The notes under the pieces: model-generated
What the model saw: only the letters and a program-made list of their open reading frames with translations
The model's database searches: none
Told to the model about the DNA's origin: nothing
Shown here: positions 7,166-62,285 of the stretch, piece after piece
How the letters are laid out: every line of letters begins with the position of its first letter
How positions within the stretch are numbered: the first letter of the stretch is position 1
Made by a program: the position numbers and the translations under genes
NCBI GenBank assembly: GCA_951406725.2
Contig: OX597814.1
Coordinates: forward strand, 212,784,001-212,848,000
Length of the DNA: 64,000 nucleotides
From: Octopus vulgaris
Taxonomy: Eukaryota
Direction of reading: 5' to 3'

Positions 7166-7229
<64 letters not shown>

Positions 7230-7366
7230 CAAGATTAATCAGCCGAAATTGCGAAGATGATCCAGTTCTTGACTGATGATTGAGGGCTTCGAATGTCCCG
7301 TCCGTATTTTTTGTGTCGTCTTCTAAATGTTTCACGTTCTTGTCCCGATTGTATATTTTTTACTTT

Positions 7367-7423
<57 letters not shown>

Positions 7424-8947: not shown

Positions 8948-9510
8948 TTATAGAATAGTCCTTCTGAATGGGATCTGGATGTTACTCCATTCGTACTTTC
9001 GGTTGAGAGTAGGTTTGTATTCTTGTATACAAACAGCTTCTGTGACCTGTCTCAACATTGCATCGGTGGGATGTGTTGATAGGATGTTCAACTTAAGCTT
9101 CCCTAAGGATCCCTTGTGGCAGTCTACAGCATGTTGGTAGAAGATGGAGTTTGGCTTCCTTTCAATGTAGTTGTCCAGGTGTTCTTTGAACCTATCATTG
9201 ATGCTTCCAGAAGTCTCACCTATGTATGACTCTGGGTTAGTCGCGCAAGCTCCCTCCTGGCACTTAATCTGGTATACAATGCCCTTGGTTTTACAATTCA
9301 CATGTGGATTTGTCGAACATACCGCACAGTTACTTTGACAGGTGATTCTATCAAATGGATATGATCTGCATAACGCCGATTTGATAGTCCTACCTGTCTT
9401 TTCTACAACTTTAACTTTTAGGCCCGTAGTGCGCAGGACTTTCTTGAATGCCTTACTTAGCTCGTTCTTAGGTGTGGCGTCAACGAACATCACTCCGTGA
9501 AATCTCCTGT
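8948..9510 (-). CDS. Penelope-like GIY-YIG endonuclease, C-terminal fragment
   Basis: C..C..C linker, GIVYQIKC...YIGETS...RFKEH, H...CH, EA..I....P.LN. Confidence 0.9.
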
Positions 9511-9588
9511 TATCGTACATACATACACACATACATACGTATATATATATGACGAACTAATTGTTACTTTCTTAGATGCAGCACGGAC

Positions 9589-10610: not shown

Positions 10611-10724
<114 letters not shown>

Positions 10725-10944
10725 TCAATATAGGGTGGCAAAAAAATTTTGTAGAATTTTTTTTGTCACCAGCGGCCTAGTGGGAAAAATTAAATAGTCA
10801 TAGACCATTTATAAGTTCAACATCACAATCAAGGAACGGCCATAATAGGCCATTCACCCACTAGAAATAACAGCCAAAGCTTCAACCGCAAAATAACATT
10901 AATTCCGCAAACCAGGAGAAAATTAAAAAAACGTTTACCCTGTA

Positions 10945-11051
10945 ATTTCTTATACGATGCACCGTTTCATCTACTGTTTAATGGTAAACTAACCTGATTA
11001 AATTAAATCAAGCCAATCTTCCATAGGCCCTTAGATTCGTCAGTAAGAAAT
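10945..11051 (-). ncRNA. type I hammerhead ribozyme
   Basis: ATTTCTTA-CTGACGA-ATCTA...TAGAT-GAAAC-GGTGCATC-GTA-TAAGAAAT. Confidence 0.85.
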
Positions 11052-11444
11052 AGCCAGATCGGAACAGATATTTTCACGAGGCACTTCTGTCCCTGCCTCG
11101 GCAATATCTGACCTAAAATTTTCAAATCATCGCACTCGCGCCAAATTTATCGGCAGCAAATAAATATAAGCCGCCGATTCCATTACGGAATCAACCAGAA
11201 AATTCATAATTAATCAATATAGGGTGGCAAAAAAATTTTGTAGAATTTTTTTTTTTTTTTTTTTTCACCAGCGGCCTAGTGGGAAAAAATTAAATAGTCA
11301 TAGACCATTTATAAGTTCAACATCACAATCAAGGAACGGCCATAATAGGCCATTCATCCACTAGAAATAACAGCCAAAGCTTCAACTGCAAAATAACATT
11401 AATTCCGCAAACCAGGAGAAAATTAAAAAAACGTTTACCCTGTA

Positions 11445-11550
11445 ATTTTTATACGATGCACCGTTTCATCTACTGTTTAATGGTAAACTAACCTGATTAA
11501 ATTAAATCAAGCCAATCTTCCATAGGCCCTTAGATTCGTCAGTAAGAAAT
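11445..11550 (-). ncRNA. type I hammerhead ribozyme (1-nt deletion in helix I)
   Basis: Same motif as 10945. Confidence 0.75.
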
Positions 11551-11728
11551 AGCCAGATCGGAACAGATATTTTCACGAGGCACTTCTGTCCCTGCCTCGG
11601 AATCGGCGGCTTATATTTATTTGCTGCCGATAAATTTGGCGCGAGTGCGATGATTTGAAAATTTTAGGTCAGATATTGCCGAGGCAGGGACAGAAGTGCC
11701 TCGTGAAAATATCTGTTCCGATCTGGCT

Positions 11729-11835
11729 ATTTCTTACTGACGAATCTAAGGGCCTATGGAAGATTGGTTTGATTTAATTTAATCAGGTTAGTTTACCATT
11801 AAACAGTAGATGAAACGGTGCATCGTATAAGAAAT
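11729..11835 (+). ncRNA. type I hammerhead ribozyme
   Basis: Helix I 11729-36/11828-35, CTGACGA 11737-43, helix II ATCTA/TAGAT, GAAAC 11812-16, GTA 11825-27. Confidence 0.85.
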
Positions 11836-11953
11836 TACAGGGTAAACGTTTTTTTAATTTTCTCCTGGTTTGCGGAATTAATGTTATTTTGCGGTTGAAG
11901 CTTTGGCTGTTATTTCTAGTGGGTGAATGGCCTATTATGGCCGTTCCTTGATT

Positions 11954-12017
<64 letters not shown>

Positions 12018-32817: not shown

Positions 32818-32894
32818 TTGAGTTGTGGGGTATCGCACGAGTGGGATTATATAAGAAAAAAGGTTTGAAAATGCAATTTAAACGATGTTTATTT

Positions 32895-32935
32895 ACTTAA
32901 CCGGTTTCACTCTTTGGTAAAAGATTGTCAAAAGT
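32895..32935 (-). ncRNA. minimal hammerhead variant (U3-A8)
   Basis: Reverse complement of 35194-35234. Confidence 0.55.
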
Positions 32936-33513
32936 TACATTTAAGGAAACATTGAATAATATGGGTTCAAAAAAGTTTTTTACATAATTGTCACATTGAA
33001 TATTATGCATTCAAAAAAGTTTTTTACATAATTGTCACATTGGATATTATGGGTTCAAAAAAAGTTTTTTACATAATTGTCACATTGGATATTATGAATT
33101 CAAAAATGTTTTTTTATACATAATTGTCACATTATTTGGGAAAATTTGGCAGAAAAGGATAAAACAAATATATTATTGGGAATTGGTTGCGTTAATTATT
33201 GGTTGTCGCAAATTGTCACATTACATGTATATATATACAATCTTTGGTATATATATACAGCGTTTTGACAGCAAAAATTAAAATGGATTTTTTGTCCATC
33301 TCAGAATATTTTAAGTATGTTTTTACTGACCTGTCAGTATTAGCAGAAAGGCTGAACTGAGAGAACAGAAGTGCGCGCGTTGTATGTGTTTGTGTGTGTG
33401 CACGTGTGTATATATGTGTGTGTGTGTGTGTGCACTGTGTGCGGGTGTGTGTGTATGTGTGTGTGTGTGTGTGTGAGCATTGTATACGTGTGTATGTATT
33501 TACATATGTATCT

Positions 33514-33569
<56 letters not shown>

Positions 33570-35193
33570 ATATGCATGGTATGTGTGTATATGTTAGTAC
33601 TTTGTTTGTGTGTATGTGCGGCATGTAGAGATATATTTGAGTGTGTACGCTATAGGTTTGTAATTTGTGTGTGTGGGGGGTGGTGAATTTTTTATATATA
33701 TATGTGTGTGTGTATGTGTGTGAAAAAATATATGTATGTGCATGTATGTATGTATGTATGTGTGTATATATATATATATATATGTGTATATATATGTGTG
33801 TGTGTGTATGTGTGTGTGTGTATATTTATTTGCATGTTTATGTGTGTATAAACATGTACATTATTTGCATGCGCATTGTATATATGTATATTGTATGTAT
33901 GTGTATTGTATATGTACGTGTACAATTAAGTGTATATATTTGTGTGTATGTGTGCACTGTATATATGTATATTGTAGGTGTGCTATATGTGCATGAATAC
34001 ATGTATATGCATTGCGTGTATATATATGTATGCATTGTGTGTGTATGTATGTTATGTGTGTGTGTGTGTATATATATATTATATGTATGCGTACGTGTAT
34101 GTGTATGCATTGTATGTATGTGTGTTGTGTGTATATGTGGTACATCTATGTATGTGTATGTAAACACTATTTATATGTATATGTGTATATATGTATATGC
34201 ATTGTCTATATATATATATATTATATGTATGTATTGCGTATGTATATTGCATGCATATATTGTGTATGTATATTACTTACATGCTGTATGTGTGTATTGT
34301 ATGTGTGTATATATATATGCTAGGTGTATTTGTGTGATATTTATATTATGTATGTATGTGTGCGTGTGTTGTGTGTGTGTGTGTGTATGTGTGTTATATA
34401 TCTGTGTATGTTATATATAGATACATGTTATATTTGTGTGCTGTGTGTATATGTGATATATGTGGGTGCGTTGTGTGTGGGTGTGTGTGTTCTGTGTGTG
34501 TGTGTTGTTTGTATGTGGTTTGTGTTTGTATACTATGTGTGTGTGTGTGTGTGTTGTTGTGTGTGTGTGTGTTTGTGTGTATATATATGTGTGTGACAAA
34601 CAGACGCTGTCTGACCAGCAGGCACGGACACATCTATTCATACCCGCATACTAACCTCCTGATAACCCCAAAATCATTCATGCATAAAGGGGAAGTATAC
34701 ACCACATTGGCTACTTCTGTTCTCTCAGTTCAGCCTTTCTGCTAATACTGACAGGTCAGTAAAAACATACTTAAAATATTCTGAGATGGACAAAAAATCC
34801 ATTTTAATTTTTGCTGTCAAAACGCTGTATATATATACCAAAGATTGTATATATATACATGTAATGTGACAATTTGCGACAACCAATAATTAACGCAACC
34901 AATTCCCAATAATATATTTGTTTTATCCTTTTCTGCCAAATTTTCCCAAATAATGTGACAATTATGTATAAAAAAACATTTTTGAATTCATAATATCCAA
35001 TGTGACAATTATGTAAAAAACTTTTTTGAATGCATAATATTCAATGTGACAATTATGTAAAAAACTTTTTTTGAACCCATAATATCCAATGTGACAATTA
35101 TGTAAAAAACTTTTTTGAATGCATAATTTTCAATGTGACAATTATGTAAAAAACTTTTTTGAACCCATATTATTCAATGTTTCCTTAAATGTA

Positions 35194-35234
35194 ACTTTTG
35201 ACAATCTTTTACCAAAGAGTGAAACCGGTTAAGT
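35194..35234 (+). ncRNA. minimal hammerhead variant (U3-A8)
   Basis: ACTT-TTGACAA-TCTTTT-ACCA-AAGAGT-GAAA-CCG-GTT-AAGT. Confidence 0.55.
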
Positions 35235-35273
35235 AAATAAACATCGTTTAAATTGCATTTTCAAACCTTTTTT

Positions 35274-35327
<54 letters not shown>

Positions 35328-35527: not shown

Positions 35528-35786
35528 TAAAAATTTTAAAATTATGTCATTTTAAGGAAAGGAAAAAAATTTTTCCAATATTCTCCAGACATTTTGACAC
35601 AAATATATATATTTTTTAACATTTAAGCCTTCTGTCGTTTTTTCACACTTTACTATTTTCTTATATATATATATATATATACATATAGTTAATCCAAACA
35701 TGAACAAAGAGAAAACACAACAACGCGAGGACGTGGAACAAGTATAGTGTAATTGGGCGATCACGAAAGGAAAGAAAGAAGGAAGC

Positions 35787-35820
35787 TTTAATGTTTCGAG
35801 CGGAGCTCTTCGTCAGTAAT
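35787..35820 (-). ncRNA. minimal hammerhead, degenerate helices I/III, in repeat 35685-35900 (relative at 7450-7657)
   Basis: CTGACGA-A-GAGC-TCC-GCTC-GAAAC-ATTA. Confidence 0.55.
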
Positions 35821-36660
35821 GTAGAAAAAAGGAAAAGTCCAAGGAAGGGAAGACAGAGAAAGAAAATCGCCAACGACACACACGCGGTCACATATTGAAA
35901 TGAGTGGAAGGAAATGTGTGAAGAAAAAGTTCTTTCAAAGACAGGAGAGTGCAATATATATATATATACATACATATGGATAAGCATATTAATAGGGGTC
36001 CGTGGGAAAACTCATTTGAATAAACGGGTTGGGAACCACTGCTCTAGGTAATAGGATACTTTCTTTGTGAGTTTCGAAACCAGCAAGTAAAAAATTATCA
36101 GTTTCATCCCAGTGAAACAGTTATTTTGGCGGGTGAGGGTTGTCACAGACATTTTTTTCTTTTCTAAGGTAATCCGTTTCTGTACACATTCTGTGTCAAA
36201 TGTTTGGAGCTTCATAAATCTCAATTGTTCATTAACTTGTATATGATTTAAAAACCAATTAGCCAGTCAGTAAGTAGGAGGGGATATCAAAGAATAATTA
36301 GAATATCATCTGCATGTAAATTGATTACGACCGAGAACAGATACTTTTATTGTTTGATGCAAAATAATTTCATCGATTATCTGAATCTATTACTAACTCA
36401 CGATTCTAAAGTAGATCCTACTACATGCAACAGGTACTTGACGTCAAGTAGAAAAATATCAAAATCCTCATCCTCAATAAATTAATACATTCATTAATAT
36501 TGCAGATAAAATACAATAATTTGCAAACATGTCAGCACTACATTCAATAAAAGAAGTTTTTAATATATATATATATAATAATAAATATTAGGGAATAAAT
36601 CCAAATTCACAGGGAAAAATCAGATTTAGGATTGAATCCAATATTATAGTAAAATATTAT

Positions 36661-36807
36661 ATTATATTATATTAGAGACAAAACCACTATTATGCAAATC
36701 AAACAAAGAGAGACTTAAGCCAATACATAAAATAATTTATATAAATTAAAAGTCTTTCTTTGTTTGATTTGCATAATAGTGGTTTTGTCTCTAATATAAT
36801 ATAATAT
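36661..36807. repeat. fold-back with ~56-bp arms
   Basis: ATTATATTATATTAGAGACAAAACC...AGACTT / AAGTCT...GGTTTTGTCTCTAATATAATATAAT, one mismatch. Confidence 0.9.
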
Positions 36808-37049
36808 TATATATATAATTAATTAATAAGGGTGAGAGAATTAGATACTAATTTAATAGTATATCTTTATTAATTAATTATAATTATGCTGCATTTATTT
36901 CTAAATGCTGTATTTGTTTTCCGTGAAAATTTGGCGCGCTGTTAGTTGGGGCATTTGAATTATAACGTCGGATGTAATCAATTGAACCACACGCGTATTT
37001 ATCGTTATGGTAAAATCTGGCGTGTGATTGAGTGGATTTCATCCAGATA

Positions 37050-37133
37050 GTTTTGGCTGAAGAGCTACAAGTGGATTTTATTGTAAGTAAAATTACATTT
37101 AATTCATTAATAGCGAAACAATTGTCCCAAAAT
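37050..37133 (+). ncRNA. type I hammerhead ribozyme, canonical core
   Basis: GTTTTGG-CTGAAGA-GCTA-(43 nt)-TAGC-GAAAC-AATT-GTC-CCAAAAT. Confidence 0.9.
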
Positions 37134-37582
37134 AATCTGTATTTGTTATTTTTTATTTGCCCTGTCCGTGTGAGCTAACAATCGTACTGACTTTCATGGG
37201 AAACATGTATTTTTGTGGTTGAAACCTTTTGGATTAACTGGTGCTAGAGTGAGCCATATAGTGACCACTCTCTTATATTTATTTTGTAAAAATATTATAA
37301 TATATTATAAAATATTATAATAATCCAGGTTTCTCGGAGCACTAGGCCACTTGGTGTAGAATAGATATACTATTAAATTAGTATCTAATTCTCTCACCCT
37401 TATTAATTAATTATAATTATGCTGCATTTATTTCTAAATGCTGTATTTGTTTTCCGTGAAAATTTGGCGCGCTGTTAGTTGGGGCATTTGAATTATAACG
37501 TCGGATGTAATCAATTGAACCACACGCGTATTTATCGTTATGGTAAAATCTGGCGTGTGATTGAGTGGATTTCATCCAGATA

Positions 37583-37666
37583 GTTTTGGCTGAAGAGCTA
37601 CAAGTGGATTTTATTGTAAGTAAAATTACATTTAATTCATTAATAGCGAAACAATTGTCCCAAAAT
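37583..37666 (+). ncRNA. type I hammerhead ribozyme, canonical core
   Basis: Identical copy 533 nt downstream. Confidence 0.9.
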
Positions 37667-37812
37667 AATCTGTATTTGTTATTTTTTATTTGCCCTGTCC
37701 GTGTGAGCTAACAATCGTACTGACTTTCATGGGAAACATGTATTTTTGTGGTTGAAACCTTTTGGATTAACTGGTGCTAGAGTGAGCCATATAGTGACCA
37801 CTCTCTTATATT

Positions 37813-37862
<50 letters not shown>

Positions 37863-37910
37863 AAAAATTTTATATAAAAATACAAAATGGGACAAGAACG
37901 CAAAACACAC

Positions 37911-38489
37911 AAAGAGACGACACAAAAAACGGACGGGTCAATCGAAGCCTCTAATCTTCAGTCAGGAACCGGATGATCCTAGCAATTTCGGCTGATTAAT
38001 CCTGATATCGCTCCGTTCCGGCCAGCCCCAAGGAAAAACTAAGCTGCGAGCATTAGATTTCTTGGAAAAAGGATCGAATGTATACGAAACAAGGACAGAA
38101 AAACGGGCGATGCCTTTGACCGTGCCACGACAACACCGTATTCTTCGTCTGCCGAACAGGTATTTATTTCAAAATACGTCAGCTAAGATAAGTTAAACTG
38201 TCTAAAGTCGTAAGACACCTGCTGTTTTTGTCCTGTTATTACTACTCTTGTTTTTTATTTTTGTTTCTTGTATTTATATTTGTGTGGCATCGTCCGTTTT
38301 TCTGTCCTGGTTTCGTATACATTCTATCCTTTTTCCAAGAAATCTAATGCTCGCAGCTTAGTTTTTCCTTGAGGCTGGCCGGATCGGAGCGATATCAGGA
38401 TTAATCGGCCGAAATTGCTAGGATGATCCGGTTCCTGACTGAAGATTAGAGGCTTCGAATGACCCGTCCGTTTTTTGTGTCGTCTCTTT
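37911..38489. repeat. inverted repeat (37911-38114 / 38286-38489), pLTR-like; relative at 7230-7370
   Basis: ~200-bp arms with a few mismatches, in (TA)n. Confidence 0.85.
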
Positions 38490-52735: not shown

Positions 52736-52778
52736 TGTGTGTGTGTGTGTTTGTTTGTGCTTATACACGCACAATATC

Positions 52779-53625
52779 TCGCAATATCACGGATGCAGTT
52801 GTACATCGTTAACGAGCTAAAGGAGATGTCCTCCTGGCGTTAAGAAATCGCAGTAAAGTCGTTTGAAATGGGCAGCCATGTTGAAGTAGCTATGAACAAT
52901 AGTTGTTAGTACAACTACTGCGTTGATCTCTGTGAGCGATTTTAGAACTAACATTTTTGCTTGTTGTAATATCAACGACTGTATGTGGCTCGAAATTATA
53001 TATACATTGCGAGCTATTGCCATCACTAGCAGACGAGGGGTCCAGTACTGAAGAGAGGCAAAAATAGCCCGAAACTAGGCTGGTTCCGTCGCTAAAAGTG
53101 GTAGAGATACGATCCCCTGCTCGCAATATCTCAGGTGCAGCTGTGCATCGCTAGCCAGCTAGAGGAGATGTCCTCTTGGGGTTAAAAAATCGCAGTAAAT
53201 CGGACGGCTACGTTGAAGCGGGTACGAACATTAGTTGTTAGTACAACTACTGCGTTGATCTCTGTGAGCGATTTTAGAACTAACATTTTTGCTTGTTGTA
53301 ATATCAACGACTGTATGTGGCTCGAAATTATATATACATTGCGAGCTACTGCCATCACTAGCAGACGAGGGGTCCAGTACTGAACAGAGGCAAAAATAGC
53401 CCGAAACTAGGCTGGTTCCGTCGCTAGAAAGTGGTAGAGATACGATCCCCTGCTCTTAATATATCAGGTGCAGCTGTGCATCGTTAACCAGCTAGAGAAG
53501 ATGTCCTCTTGGGGTTAAAACATCGCAGTAAATCGGACGGCTACGTTGAAGCGGGTACGAACATTAGTTGTTAGTACAACTACTGCGTTGATTCCTTTAG
53601 AGAGATTTTAGAACGTGCATTTTTG

Positions 53626-53628
<3 letters not shown>
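52779..53628 (+). repeat. tandem ~333-bp repeat, 2.5 units, with hammerhead-like motif (53042-53083, 53374-53415)
   Basis: Units start at ~52779, 53121 and 53454; CTGAAGA-GAGGC-AAAAATA-GCCC-GAAACTAGGC. Confidence 0.85.
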
Positions 53629-58016: not shown

Positions 58017-59612
58017 TCACATCGACAATGCTCTTCTCAATACGTGTGATGTACCAGTTAAGACAATCTTTTGCACTTCTTGCAGGGATGGTAAGCCAGG
58101 GATCATTCTCATATAATTTTCGGTTCCCTTCTTGATCATTCCTAGTGCTCCTACGATCACTGGTATTGTAACCGCCTTGAGATGCCACATTTTCTCAATT
58201 TCAATGAGTAGGTCTTTATATTTTCTGAGCTTGTCAAACTCTTTCGCTGAGATATTATGATCACAGGGGATGCTCATGTCGATCAATAAGCAAACTTTAT
58301 TGTTTTGGTCTTTCTCAACAATATCTGGTTTATTGGCCTTGATGGTTCGGTCTGTATGTACTGGAAAGTCCCACAGAATCGTTACATTTTCTCCTTCAGT
58401 TACAGCCTCAGGGTGGTGATTATACCACTTGTCGGCAGTTTTGATATTGTAATGCCGACTTATTAGCCAGTGGAGATATTGGCCAACTCTGTCATGTCTT
58501 AATTTATACTCCACTGGTGCTAAGACTTTACATCCAGAGATTAGGTGGTCCACTGTTTCAATCATGTCGTTGCAGAATCGGCATTTTGGGTCTGCTCCAT
58601 TTTTCATCACATTGGCCTGGTAGTTCCGGGTTAATAGGCTTTGGTCTTGAGCAGCCAGGATGAAACCTTCGCTCTCTGCTTTTAGCCCTGAGCTCCGCAG
58701 CCACTGATGGGTTTGCTTCTGGTCAACATCAGCTTGTTTGCTGCGGGTCACATATTTGCCGTGCAGAGGTTTCTCCTCCCACCTATCAGCCAATTGCTCG
58801 TGCGCTTTTTTCATTGCCATTATTTTCACCTTCTTTGCAACAATAGTTGCCGTACTTCCCTCGGGTTGTTCAGTTTGGGTATCCTGCACGAGATCAATAG
58901 CAAATTTTTTGCTTTCCTTGATGATAGAATGAAGCTTCTTTCGTCTCTCGTGATTTTCCACGAGCTTTAGCATCCAGTCATTCGATATTTCGAGATATTT
59001 GGCCAGTCCAATTGTGGTTGTTTTGTAAGCTAGTTCAAATTGGATCAGGCCTCGACCTCCTTGGGCTCTGGGAAGGTAAAGGCGATCTACGTCTGCCTTT
59101 GGGTGGTGCATCCTATTACAACTCAGCAGCTTGCGTATTTTTCTATCTATATTCTTTACTTCACTCATATTCCAGTTCAACACATTGTAGCTATAAGTAA
59201 CAACTGGAACTGCTAAGGAATTTATAGCTAACACCTTGTTACATGCATTTAGTTCAGATTTCAGGACTGCACGAACTCTCCTATAACATTCCTTCCTGAT
59301 TTTCTCTTTCATGCTTGCATGCTGAATACCAGAGCCTTCATTTATCCCTAAATATTTGTATGTCTGTTCTTGCTCAAGCTCTCTTATGACTGTGTCAACA
59401 TCTAACACGACTGAATTTGTGGTCTTCACTTTCCCTTTCTGGAAAGTGGCCTTGGCACACTTCTCAAGTCCAAACTCCATCCCGATGTCATCGCTGAATG
59501 CTTTCACGGTGCGCAATAGGCCTTCAAGTTCATTATTGTCTTTACCATAAAGTTTTAAGTCATCCATATAAAATAGAGGGCTTATTTTTTTTATTGGCAA
59601 TTTTATACCCAT
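58017..59612 (-). CDS. R4/Dong ORF C-terminal part (YMDD, thumb, CCHC, PD..D nuclease)
   Basis: FYMDDLKLY, GGRGL, CRFC...ET..H..SGC, RHD, KPDI..IDMSIP..K..KY. Confidence 0.9.
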   Translation of the reverse strand: MGIKLPIKKISPLFYMDDLKLYGKDNNELEGLLRTVKAFSDDIGMEFGLEKCAKATFQKGKVKTTNSVVLDVDTVIRELEQEQTYKYLGINEGSGIQHASMKEKIRKECYRRVRAVLKSELNACNKVLAINSLAVPVVTYSYNVLNWNMSEVKNIDRKIRKLLSCNRMHHPKADVDRLYLPRAQGGRGLIQFELAYKTTTIGLAKYLEISNDWMLKLVENHERRKKLHSIIKESKKFAIDLVQDTQTEQPEGSTATIVAKKVKIMAMKKAHEQLADRWEEKPLHGKYVTRSKQADVDQKQTHQWLRSSGLKAESEGFILAAQDQSLLTRNYQANVMKNGADPKCRFCNDMIETVDHLISGCKVLAPVEYKLRHDRVGQYLHWLISRHYNIKTADKWYNHHPEAVTEGENVTILWDFPVHTDRTIKANKPDIVEKDQNNKVCLLIDMSIPCDHNISAKEFDKLRKYKDLLIEIEKMWHLKAVTIPVIVGALGMIKKGTENYMRMIPGLPSLQEVQKIVLTGTSHVLRRALSM

Positions 59613-59629
59613 ACCCTGTTCTGTTTAAT

Positions 59630-61177
59630 TCACTTGTAAGGGGGTATTAGGGCTATGCAGAATATTAAAGGTGAAAGTGAGTCACCTTGAAAAATTCCAC
59701 AGTTGATGTTTATATTTTCTGAGGCAAGTACTCCATTAGAGTGGTATAATTGGAGATTCGTATTCCACAACGACATATTGTGCTTCAGGAAGTTTGAAAT
59801 CACAGGGGAAATTTTAAAGATGTCCAGCGATCTCAAGATCCATGGATGCAGTATACTGTCGAAGGCCTTTTTATAGTCAATCCATGCGGTGCTGAGATTT
59901 CTGCGCTTGTTGTGACAGTTCTCAAGGATCATACGATTGATTAGCAGTTGATCTTTGCATCCGTAACAGCCTCGGCGGCACCCTTTTTGTTCAGTGGGGA
60001 AAATATCGTTCTTCTCCATGAATGCATATGTTTTCTCCGCCAGGATAGATGTTAGGATTTTATACGTGGTGGATAGACAGGTTATAGGCCGATAGTTTTT
60101 TGGAAGGTTGGTTTCGTTATTCTTTGGGAGTAGGTAAGTAATGCCACTTGCTAACCATTCAGGTGTTTTCTTTGGGTCTCTCAAAATTCCATTGAGCAGC
60201 TGAACTAGCTTACCGTGCGCGCACGGGAGCGATGCGAGCCAGAAATTCGGCACCCTATCTTTACCGGAGGATTTCCAATTATGGGCCTTCGTGAGTGCCT
60301 TTCTTAGGTCTGCTATTGTGATGTCTTCCCATGCTTGTTGTTGTAAATTTTGGTAGGATCCTTCAGTTTGTATAATCCAGTCTGCATTTATGTTGTACGT
60401 CTTCTTGTCACTCCAAATCCTTTCCCAAAAGTTTTGAACTTCTTCCATGGGAGGGGGGTCTTTAACGGTTACTTTCTCCTTCCCTATTTCTCTGTAGAAT
60501 TTTTTGGCATTGGATGTGAACAGCTTATTTTGCTTGTAAAACTTGTTTCTCTTCTCAAATCTTCGTATTCTTTGGGCTTTTGCTTGGACTTTTTGTTTCA
60601 GCGTTTCTTTTATTGATATCAGTTCTTCTCTTGGTGAGGATCCAAATTTTCTCTTCATCTTTCTTCCTGTTCTGGATCTTACATCATTTCCACATATTAG
60701 TTCATTTAATATTGATATTTCCCCTCTCATAAATTCAATCTCTTTTTCAATTTTACTTCTCCAGGTTTGATTTCTTCCCAGGTTTTGTTTTCTTTGTTTT
60801 TTCGGGGGCATACAGCTGGTTTCAATTGCCCTAGCAGAAGCGTAAGTAATTTCATTTAACTCAGTAAAATCAGGTTTTAATTCTCGTATTATTTCATTTG
60901 TTACATAGTTGCCAATTTGGATTTGTTTTTTATTTTGGTTTGTATTTGAGAGTTTATGAAGCTGTTCTCTATCATTCATACTTGTATGTCTTACAACTTC
61001 AAGCGTATTCAGGATTTTCTGCCTCATTTCTGCCATAGACTCTCTGTGTTCTTCAGCAAATGCGAGATCTTCAGTTACTGTTGTTTTTTCGTTTTCCTGG
61101 CTATCTTTAACAGGTACAATAAGGATTTCTTGTATCTTCAGGCCTTTGCGTACTTTGGTCAGATGGCAGTCTTTCAA
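59630..61177 (-). CDS. R4/Dong ORF central part (RT domains 0-4)
   Basis: NYRPITCL, EQKG, WIDYKKAFDS, GIFQGDSLSP. Confidence 0.9.
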   Translation of the reverse strand: MKDCHLTKVRKGLKIQEILIVPVKDSQENEKTTVTEDLAFAEEHRESMAEMRQKILNTLEVVRHTSMNDREQLHKLSNTNQNKKQIQIGNYVTNEIIRELKPDFTELNEITYASARAIETSCMPPKKQRKQNLGRNQTWRSKIEKEIEFMRGEISILNELICGNDVRSRTGRKMKRKFGSSPREELISIKETLKQKVQAKAQRIRRFEKRNKFYKQNKLFTSNAKKFYREIGKEKVTVKDPPPMEEVQNFWERIWSDKKTYNINADWIIQTEGSYQNLQQQAWEDITIADLRKALTKAHNWKSSGKDRVPNFWLASLPCAHGKLVQLLNGILRDPKKTPEWLASGITYLLPKNNETNLPKNYRPITCLSTTYKILTSILAEKTYAFMEKNDIFPTEQKGCRRGCYGCKDQLLINRMILENCHNKRRNLSTAWIDYKKAFDSILHPWILRSLDIFKISPVISNFLKHNMSLWNTNLQLYHSNGVLASENININCGIFQGDSLSPLIFCIALIPPYK

Positions 61178-61709
61178 TTAAGCCTCGTGACGGGCTATAC
61201 TGTTCATCTGATTCTTCATTTCCTTTGTGTCTTATATTTATGTCATTTTCCGTTGCGTGCTTGATCGCACTTATTTCACTGTCTGTGAGTCTGTTATTTC
61301 TAAAGATATCCCTCCTCACATTTGCTAATTTGTTCTCGTCCAAATAGGGCCTACTGTCTTGATTCCGTGTTCTCCATATACTGTAAGAGTTTGCGGTGTG
61401 TCTCTCTTCAGATGGCCTACCTAATGCATAGTAATAAGCGTATATTACTTCTTTATACTCTTCTCGGGTCCATTTGTTCCGCTTACATTTTTCTTTCTGT
61501 GGTGGTTGTGGTGGTGAACTTGGAGGGCTCGAGTTGGGGGATTTCCCGTTCAAGTGACCATCTATGTCCGTATTCGGAGAAGAGTTTGTGCCAGTTGATG
61601 ACTTTTCGATCCCAGGCTGGCTCTTCCCTGGGGGACGCGCTTCCAGATTAACCATAGGACAAGCGATTTGGTATACTGATTTAGTTTTCCTTTTAGTTTC
61701 CAAAAACAT
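61107..61709 (-). CDS. R4/Dong ORF N-terminal part
   Basis: R.KWTREE...VI..YY and LAN.RR.I..NNRL...EI. Confidence 0.8.
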   Translation of the reverse strand: MFLETKRKTKSVYQIACPMVNLEARPPGKSQPGIEKSSTGTNSSPNTDIDGHLNGKSPNSSPPSSPPQPPQKEKCKRNKWTREEYKEVIYAYYYALGRPSEERHTANSYSIWRTRNQDSRPYLDENKLANVRRDIFRNNRLTDSEISAIKHATENDINIRHKGNEESDEQYSPSRGLIERLPSDQSTQRPEDTRNPYCTC

Positions 61710-62285
61710 TTTGGTGCTACGATAATGTTATCATTTTTTAGCTTTGATTGGCTCGTGGGGATTATAATTGCCGTTACAATTATAATCGTACCCTTATAGC
61801 AGCCGTAGTCGGCTTATTATTGTTATTATCTTCACCATTACCATCACTATCATCATTATCACCACCATTACCATCATCATTATCATCATCACCATCACCA
61901 TCACCACCATCATCATCAATGATATTGTTTTATGTGTAGTCACAGCAGTATCTTATTATTGCTATTTTTGTTTTTTATCATTATCACCATCACAGTAGTG
62001 TCTGTCTGTCTCGTTGGCTGGCTTGGTGGTTGGCTGGCTGACTGTCTTCAATGCCAGAGTTCTTGCCTGTCAAATAATACTTTCATATTTGGTTAACAAT
62101 AGAGCCGAGGTGAGGTTTGTGTGTGTGTGTGTAGATAGATAGATAGAATATCAGCACTATTACTATCTTTTTTTTTTTTTTTTTGTGGGGTCAAAAAAAG
62201 TTCAGATGTTTACTACTATTAACCTTAAGAAAAATTAAGGAAGGGCTGTTCTGTATTGTTTGTGAATAGAGAAGTTGTGTTCGAA

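What the first reader, a model, noticed from the sequence alone, without database searches (positions are those of the whole stretch)
36820..37815. Tandem 533-nt monomer bracketed by two intact canonical hammerheads (candidate circular RNA/retrozyme)
Seen: two identical ribozymes (CTGAAGA, G10.1-C11.1, GAAAC-AATT-GTC, helix I extendable by CAGAT/ATCTG) with predicted cuts after 37126 and 37659; no ORF between them. Inference: double self-cleavage would release a 533-nt RNA that could be ligated into a circle, and adjacent copies could supply the dimeric helix III (ACAATTGT palindrome).
Basis: partly seen in the sequence, partly recalled or inferred. Interest (0 to 1): 0.8.

Follow-up and report, generated by a model that had tools for sequence, protein, structure and literature searches.

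The report
Animal hammerhead retrozyme with Penelope signature
This is one insertion of a very common, non-coding animal repeat that carries a hammerhead ribozyme motif in each 533-base unit; its shape suggests it is likely pasted into TA microsatellites by Penelope-like transposon enzymes, probably via a predicted but untested circular RNA, which makes it a new example of a known kind of element.

Summary
Confirmed: two identical, intact type I hammerhead motifs lie 533 nt apart (cuts after 37126 and 37659), with no ORF between them. Corrected: the insertion is 1.78 units (416 nt duplicated, 0 mismatches) plus a 53-nt inverted piece, sitting in TA-rich DNA. The unit belongs to a very high-copy family held by 20 runs from 9 studies and 7 organisms, and its head-to-tail junction occurs in an independent run. 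Insertion ends are not at the ribozyme cut. They fall at two fixed sites 133 nt apart. A second hammerhead family in the window has the same two ends, the same tandem-plus-inversion layout and the same predicted 3' fold with compensatory changes. This is the published Penelope-like insertion signature, so the element is best read as a non-autonomous Penelope-mobilised non-LTR retrozyme. A>G changes seen only in two probable RNA runs suggest the ribozyme strand is transcribed and edited. The double hammerhead is the best single fold but only 13% of the ensemble. Cleavage and the circle are untested, and no autonomous partner was found. New member of a known kind; interest 0.42.

The parts
36814..36866 (-). 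Inverted 53-nt piece (reverse complement of 37363-37415); its RNA-sense 3' end (End A) faces the left TA-rich flank
36867..37815 (+). Forward partial tandem, 949 nt = 1.78 units of 533 nt; 36867-37282 identical to 37400-37815
37044..37139 (+). Type I hammerhead motif 1 (core at 37057; helix II 37064-37114; helix III 37118-37125; predicted cut after 37126)
37577..37672 (+). Type I hammerhead motif 2 (core at 37590; predicted cut after 37659); N7 at 37594 varies in the family
37127..37659 (+). Predicted cut-to-cut 533-nt monomer (candidate circle)
37158..37205 (+). Arm of the predicted long rod (pairs with 37448-37486, or 36915-36953 in a single unit); A>G changes of the probable RNA runs lie in and just beyond it (37178-37258)
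37215..37392 (+). Predicted 3' structured domain shared with the second family (helices P1 37215-19:37346-50, P2 37238-45:37338-45, three inner hairpins, terminal hairpin 37358-37392); candidate RT docking element (inferred)
37283..37415 (+). 133-nt tail between the two fixed ends, End B (37282, repeated at 37815) and End A (37415); present once in forward orientation
36930..36938 (+). TTTGGCGCG motif (again at 37463), shared with the second family and found nowhere else in the window; resembles an E2F site (recalled), candidate internal promoter element, untested
37816..37863 (.). (TA)n target on the right; first 8 nt ATTATATA equal 36806-36813 on the left (possible target-site duplication, weak in low-complexity DNA)
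36654..36812 (.). Imperfect 159-nt palindrome (87%) forming the left flank; a separate feature whose TA-rich end received the insertion
10717..11958 (-). Comparator: second hammerhead family (489-nt unit), partial tandem 10717-11603 on - plus inverted copy 11599-11958, End A and End B both running into (TA)n

Best explanation
This is one insertion of a high-copy, non-coding 533-nt repeat with a type I hammerhead motif in each unit, likely a non-autonomous element pasted into TA microsatellite DNA by a Penelope-like RT/GIY-YIG protein, probably from a predicted ligated circular monomer. Shown: anatomy, family abundance, two fixed ends, TA target, sister family. Inferred steps: (1) the + strand is transcribed through the tandem and folds into a rod that ADAR edits; (2) the two ribozymes cleave, most likely as a double hammerhead, and a host RtcB-type ligase closes the 533-nt piece; (3) a Penelope-like protein docks on the conserved 3' domain, nicks (TA)n and starts reverse transcription at End B, reading 1.78 units through both scissile bonds; (4) the other target strand primes at End A and gives the 53-nt inverted piece. 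A cut, unligated monomer cannot be the template, since RT starting at End B would fall off after 156 nt; the template was a circle or an uncut multimer.
For: Partial tandem + adjacent inverted copy + (TA)n target in both hammerhead families of the window matches the PLE insertion structure in PMC8557442. Two RT start sites bounding a tail downstream of the hammerhead match PMC11167929. End A recurs: loose (TA)n ends behind 37415 in X6 (6 contigs) and X18 (1). End B lies at the aligned position in the second family, at 11958 and at a 55-nt fragment at 1684; X6 pieces also stop at 37282/37283. P1+P2: 13 of 13 pairs are standard in both families, 3 changed on both sides, 1 on one side. N7 is the only core position among 18 listed variable places. 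A>G at 37178 and 37209 is 0 in both DNA runs and 15-55% in both probable RNA runs; 6 such A>G sites against 1 T>C; 6 of 6 have a 5' A/T neighbour against 14 of 26 adenines nearby (p 0.013). Both window copies carry the same allele at 37462 that makes up 6% of X1 depth, so they share one origin. A C-terminal GIY-YIG PLE remnant lies in the window. Circles are shown for coral, mussel and axolotl retrozymes in PMC7229834.
Against: No cleavage or circle data: all laid runs are contigs, and the 'goes back 533' joint is just the intact ribozyme of any copy. The double hammerhead is 0.13 of the ensemble. Only 1 of 9 Xenopus retrozyme dimers cleaved in vitro; PLE hammerhead cleavage was dispensable for insertion in vitro. 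The tandem copies of the second family differ by 3 substitutions and 3 indels, which fits a linear multimer or later mutation better than one circle read twice. No homology to an autonomous PLE terminus: best E 0.10 against 80 loci of relatives of the window's GIY-YIG protein. The RNA label of X5 and X18 is a guess, the DNA runs are other samples, and contigs drop rare variants. The right half of the core lies within 13 nt of the end of the laid stretch, so variants there may be under-listed. The tail (133 and 105 nt) is longer than the 30-40 bp reported for PLEs.
Confidence: 0.55

Rival explanations
1. Same Penelope-mobilised non-autonomous element, but the template is an uncut linear multimer transcribed from an existing tandem; the hammerhead is slow or protein-dependent and little or no 533-nt circle accumulates.
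For: PLE hammerhead mutants insert normally and unprocessed RNA is the main substrate in vitro (PMC11167929); 8 of 9 dimers did not cleave; cis helix III 0.02-0.03, double form 0.13; second-family tandem copies are not identical; all rod helices also form in a single linear unit.
Against: Core intact in two families that are otherwise only patchily alignable, with variation seen only at N7, argues that cleavage is selected; the two copies here are identical including a rare allele.
Confidence: 0.33
2. The element is mobilised by a LINE (twin priming by a restriction-like or AP endonuclease RT) rather than by a Penelope-like protein.
For: 5' inversions by twin priming are known for LINE-1 (recalled); a near-complete RT element with a non-GIY-YIG C-terminus lies at 58017-61727; no sequence link to a PLE was found.
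Against: Internal fixed start sites with a tail, partial tandems and type I hammerheads are PLE traits; no poly(A) tail; no self-match between the element and the LINE in the window.
Confidence: 0.07
3. The duplication at this locus is an assembly artefact or a chance local duplication of a single-copy insertion, so no tandem transcript exists here.
For: The copies are 100% identical over 416 nt; no listed contig spans the whole unit; PLE-like structures are known to trouble assemblies.
Against: The head-to-tail junction is bridged in an independent run (X5 record 20, 37256-37491, 3 differences); both ends sit on family-wide fixed sites; the second family has the same layout with non-identical copies.
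Confidence: 0.05

Closest known systems
Metazoan non-LTR retrozymes (Cervera and de la Pena 2020, PMC7229834; Li, Clavereau and Pollet, bioRxiv 10.64898/2026.07.22.740005)
   Same: Head-to-tail non-coding units with one type I hammerhead each, low GC, strong self-pairing, 2-bp helix III with palindromic tetraloop, high copy number, proposed PLE dependence.
   Different: 533 nt against 150-450 bp in the 2020 paper (inside the 51-972 bp range of the 2026 preprint); 51-nt helix II without evident loop1-loop2 contact; dispersed 1.8-unit insertions with 5' inversion and fixed ends, which the parts of those papers I read do not describe; circle not shown.
Penelope-like element pseudo-LTRs (Neptune/Nematis/Poseidon; PMC4209133, PMC8557442, PMC11167929)
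   Same: Partial tandem, adjacent inverted truncated copy, tail between two RT start sites downstream of a hammerhead, AT-rich/(TA)n target.
   Different: No RT or GIY-YIG ORF; tail 133 nt instead of 30-40 bp; full-size rather than minimal hammerhead; no sequence match to any PLE terminus tested.
Plant LTR retrozymes (described in the papers above)
   Same: Non-autonomous, ribozyme-flanked, circle-forming model.
   Different: Those carry type III hammerheads in true LTRs with PBS/PPT and depend on Gypsy elements.

Membership tests
Metazoan non-LTR retrozyme | Type I hammerhead with intact core in consecutive repeat units | tested here: met
Metazoan non-LTR retrozyme | Head-to-tail tandem units, multicopy family | tested here: met
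   1.78 units here; junction bridged in run X5; summed word depth 3e4-1.5e6 in both DNA runs; 20 holders, 9 studies
Metazoan non-LTR retrozyme | No protein-coding frame | tested here: met
   longest ATG frame 19 codons (+), 52 (-); the 96-aa stop-to-stop minus frame 36887-37174 has no Pfam match
Metazoan non-LTR retrozyme | Highly self-paired monomer | tested here: met
   predicted only: z -6 to -8, 66-68% paired
Metazoan non-LTR retrozyme | Unit size | tested here: inconclusive
   533 nt: above 150-450 bp, inside 51-972 bp
Metazoan non-LTR retrozyme | Transcribed in vivo | tested here: inconclusive
   A>G pattern in two runs only guessed to be RNA; family level, not this locus
Metazoan non-LTR retrozyme | Self-cleavage and accumulation of circular monomer | not testable with these tools
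   only contigs were available
Metazoan non-LTR retrozyme | No PBS or PPT | not tested
   no tRNA complementarity search was run
Penelope-type insertion | Partial tandem with adjacent inverted truncated copy | tested here: met
   same in second family
Penelope-type insertion | Two RT start sites bounding a tail | tested here: met
   two recurrent ends in both families; tail 133/105 nt, longer than published; that they are RT starts is inferred
Penelope-type insertion | AT-rich or (TA)n target | tested here: met
   5 of 5 insertion ends examined run into TA-rich DNA
Autonomous Penelope-like element | RT plus GIY-YIG ORF between the terminal repeats | tested here: not met
Derivative of a named PLE | Sequence homology to the terminal repeat of an autonomous PLE | tested here: inconclusive
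   none in 80 loci from other organisms (best E 0.10); own genome not held
Canonical type I hammerhead | Loop1-loop2 tertiary contact and Rfam-level match | tested here: not met
   1x1 mismatch in helix I, 51-nt helix II; 0 Rfam matches at gathering score

The most novel reading that the evidence does not exclude
These are abundant, ADAR-edited 500-nt circular RNAs of an invertebrate (probably cephalopod) group that carry a conserved, covarying 3' RNA domain docking a Penelope RT at two fixed start sites, so the circle itself is the template of Penelope target-primed insertion: the direct structural link between full-size hammerhead retrozymes and Penelope machinery that the field has only inferred from co-occurrence and phylogeny.
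Probability: 0.3. Interest if true: 0.7.

Novelty: new member of a known kind. Interest (0 to 1): 0.42.

Why it matters
How animal retrozymes move, and whether their circles are the reverse-transcription template, is stated as open in PMC7229834 and in the 2026 preprint. These two families give insertion-level handles: fixed start sites, a defined tail and a covarying 3' domain that can be mutated in the existing in vitro PLE assay, and identity of units within one insertion as a genome-wide test of circle against multimer. Without those tests it is one more hammerhead repeat family in an animal genome.

Tried and rejected
Rfam, whole window, gathering score: 0 matches. Own genome: not held, so copy number and insertion ends could not be counted genome-wide. 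No RNA holder on record was listed; RNA labels are guesses. A ribozyme-region pattern gave 0 matches in metagenome contigs and 1 in viral contigs, which lacks the rest of the ribozyme and is chance. The 'goes back 533' joint in 4 of 4 runs was rejected as evidence of a circle or tandem, because the laid stretch starts at the cut site. Host identification failed: best named relatives of the window's LINE RT are from shrimp, hydrozoan, fish and psyllid at 35-48%; 0 of 124 further frames (of 145 selected, from 420 of 55 aa or more) matched Pfam, so no host gene and no intron context. RNAalifold on the two-family MAFFT alignment recovered P1 but not P2, whose 5' arms are two columns out of register; P1/P2 counts come from independent folds. 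Counts for P0, P3 and P4 were not used, since their register is not anchored. Search for the autonomous partner: 80 loci, 7 hammerhead-like motifs, all on the coding strand, 5 of them about 120-160 nt behind the endonuclease match, none similar to this family. Earlier findings: nothing in 3 look-ups. Literature: 'octopus + hammerhead ribozyme', 'cephalopod + hammerhead + ribozyme' and 'retrozyme + A-to-I + circular RNA' listed no description of this family; an Octopus repeat paper has 0 mentions of hammerhead or retrozyme in its main text; a squid genome paper counts 235 Rfam hammerheads without analysis. Repbase and Dfam could not be searched, and no supplements were read, so the family may already be catalogued as a repeat.

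Full report
Observation. The window is AT-rich, microsatellite-laden eukaryotic DNA; no genome is held. Two identical type I hammerhead motifs start at 37057 and 37590, with all core nucleotides, G10.1-C11.1, a 7-bp helix I, a 51-nt helix II and a 2-bp helix III closed by AATT; predicted cuts follow 37126 and 37659. A strict scan gives 4 hits in the window and 1 hit in all 100 shuffles together. Rfam does not detect them, probably because of the long helix II (inference). There is no ORF. The duplication is 416 nt with 0 mismatches at a period of 533, so the forward part 36867-37815 is 1.78 units. Directly upstream, 36814-36866 is the reverse complement of 37363-37415. Both ends run into TA-rich DNA, with a possible 8-nt target duplication.

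Family. The unit is held by 20 of 22 listed runs, from 9 studies and 7 coded organisms. I laid 4 of them on 37127-37659. Summed word depth in the two DNA runs is 3e4-1.5e6 across all 30 bins; this is no copy number but marks a very abundant repeat. One contig of run X5 bridges 37256-37491, so the head-to-tail junction exists outside this assembly. Loose (TA)n ends follow 37415 in X6 (6 contigs) and X18 (1), and X6 pieces stop at 37282/37283. Of 18 listed variable places only N7 (37594) is in the catalytic core; the right half of the core lies near the end of the laid stretch and may be under-sampled. Variant helix I arms seen in separate contigs are mutually complementary by eye, but they are not on one molecule, so I do not count them.

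Sister family. The same window holds a second hammerhead family at 10717-11958: a 489-nt unit in partial tandem on the minus strand plus an inverted copy, both ends in (TA)n. The two families are distantly related (local score 169.5 against a shuffle mean of 111.5 and maximum of 139.5 in 500). Each insertion has one end at a site ending in ATTAATTAT (End A) and the other at an internal site (End B) that aligns between families; a 55-nt fragment at 1684 also ends at End B. The tail between the ends is 133 and 105 nt. Folded independently, the 3' parts of both units give the same topology: P1, P2, three inner hairpins with End B in the loop of the middle one, a terminal hairpin, then 17 unpaired bases to End A. 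In P1+P2, 13 of 13 pairs are standard in both, 3 changed on both sides. With two sequences this is suggestive, not a covariation test, and RNAalifold on the unedited alignment recovers only P1.

Folding. The cut-to-cut monomer folds far better than shuffles (z -6.2; -8.3 linear and -7.1 circular; 15 background segments -3.0 to +3.5). The reverse strand also scores about -6, so part of this is plain self-complementarity. The best fold of the whole forward insert is the double hammerhead, but it holds 0.13 of the ensemble; the cis arrangement of helix I holds 0.85 and single-copy helix III 0.02-0.03.

Expression. No listed holder is on record as RNA. In the two probable RNA runs laid (organisms A and C, separate studies), A>G is 18% and 37% at 37178 and 15% and 55% at 37209, against 0 in the DNA runs of the same organisms. 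Four more A>G sites behave alike (two in X18 only), against one T>C site. All 6 have a 5' A or T (14 of 26 nearby adenines do; p 0.013), the ADAR preference (recalled). Only 1 of the 6 is firmly paired in the model, the rest lie in loops or just beyond the rod. This suggests sense-strand transcription and A-to-I editing of the family, not of this locus, and lacks matched DNA.

Mechanism. PMC8557442 (passages) describes PLE insertions as partial tandems with an adjacent inverted truncated copy, a 30-40 bp tail and (TA)n bias. PMC11167929 (main text) shows that a PLE protein cuts AT-rich DNA on both strands and starts RT at two internal sites that bound the tail, downstream of a hammerhead whose cleavage is dispensable in vitro. 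Both families here fit that geometry, with a longer tail. The insertion reads through both scissile bonds, so its template was a ligated circle or an uncut multimer, not a cut linear monomer. Identity of the two copies, including an allele at 6% of family depth, favours one template read twice; non-identical copies in the second family and weak cleavage in 8 of 9 tested dimers (bioRxiv 10.64898/2026.07.22.740005, parts 1-3 of 5) favour the multimer. A GIY-YIG remnant with an upstream CxxC motif at 8948-9532, whose best longer relative has RT before the endonuclease, shows that a Neptune/Nematis-like PLE occurs in this genome (clade assignment from the motif description). Relatives of it carry sense-strand hammerhead-like motifs (7 on +, 0 on -, in 80 loci) but none resembles this family, so the partner is unidentified.

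Comparison and verdict. The element meets the sequence-level definition of a metazoan non-LTR retrozyme (PMC7229834, parts 2-4 of 6; PMC4209133, parts 1-2 of 4); cleavage and circle cannot be tested here. The host is not established; the microsatellite load and editing fit a coleoid cephalopod (recalled, untested). Searches listed no description of this family; PMC13282606, PMC6962438 and PMC12602865 were seen as passages only, no supplements were read, and repeat databases were not available. It is a new member of a known kind. What lifts it above routine is the insertion-level Penelope signature and the shared 3' domain, which make the circle-versus-multimer question testable. Interest 0.42.

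Noticed in passing
window 10717-11958 and 1684-1738: Second hammerhead family (68-nt helix II, longer self-complementary helix III); the middle copy has a one-base deletion in helix I next to the cut site.
   Followed up: yes
window 52778-53628: Third tandem (342-nt period, about 2.5 copies) ending in (TA)n, with a minimal-type hammerhead-like core at 53048 in one copy only.
   Followed up: partly
window 35816 (- strand), about 35690-35830: Minimal hammerhead-like core (CTGACGA, short helix II, GAAAC) without a matching helix I, next to (TA)n; looks like a PLE terminus remnant.
   Followed up: no
window 37829-38489 and 7226-7401: Neighbouring repeat in inverted arrangement (204-nt arms, 96%) with a degenerate CTGAAGA core; another copy at 7226-7401.
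   Followed up: no
window 8948-9532 (-): Truncated C-terminal GIY-YIG endonuclease of a Penelope-like element, flanked by microsatellites.
   Followed up: partly
window 58017-61727 (-): Near-complete RT retroelement in three frames (broken at two places), without GIY-YIG; LINE-like.
   Followed up: partly
window 36930, 37463, 11635, 11145: TTTGGCGCG occurs only in the two hammerhead families, about 100-130 nt before the core; resembles an E2F site (recalled), possible cell-cycle-linked internal promoter.
   Followed up: no
window 32848-35281: Large inverted repeat (arms up to 425 nt, 97%) containing a 44-nt minisatellite and enclosing a TG/TA-rich tract.
   Followed up: no
L056 1335: Hammerhead-like motif with a helix I and palindromic helix III resembling this family, 3 kb before a GIY-YIG match; no wider similarity, probably convergent.
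   Followed up: no
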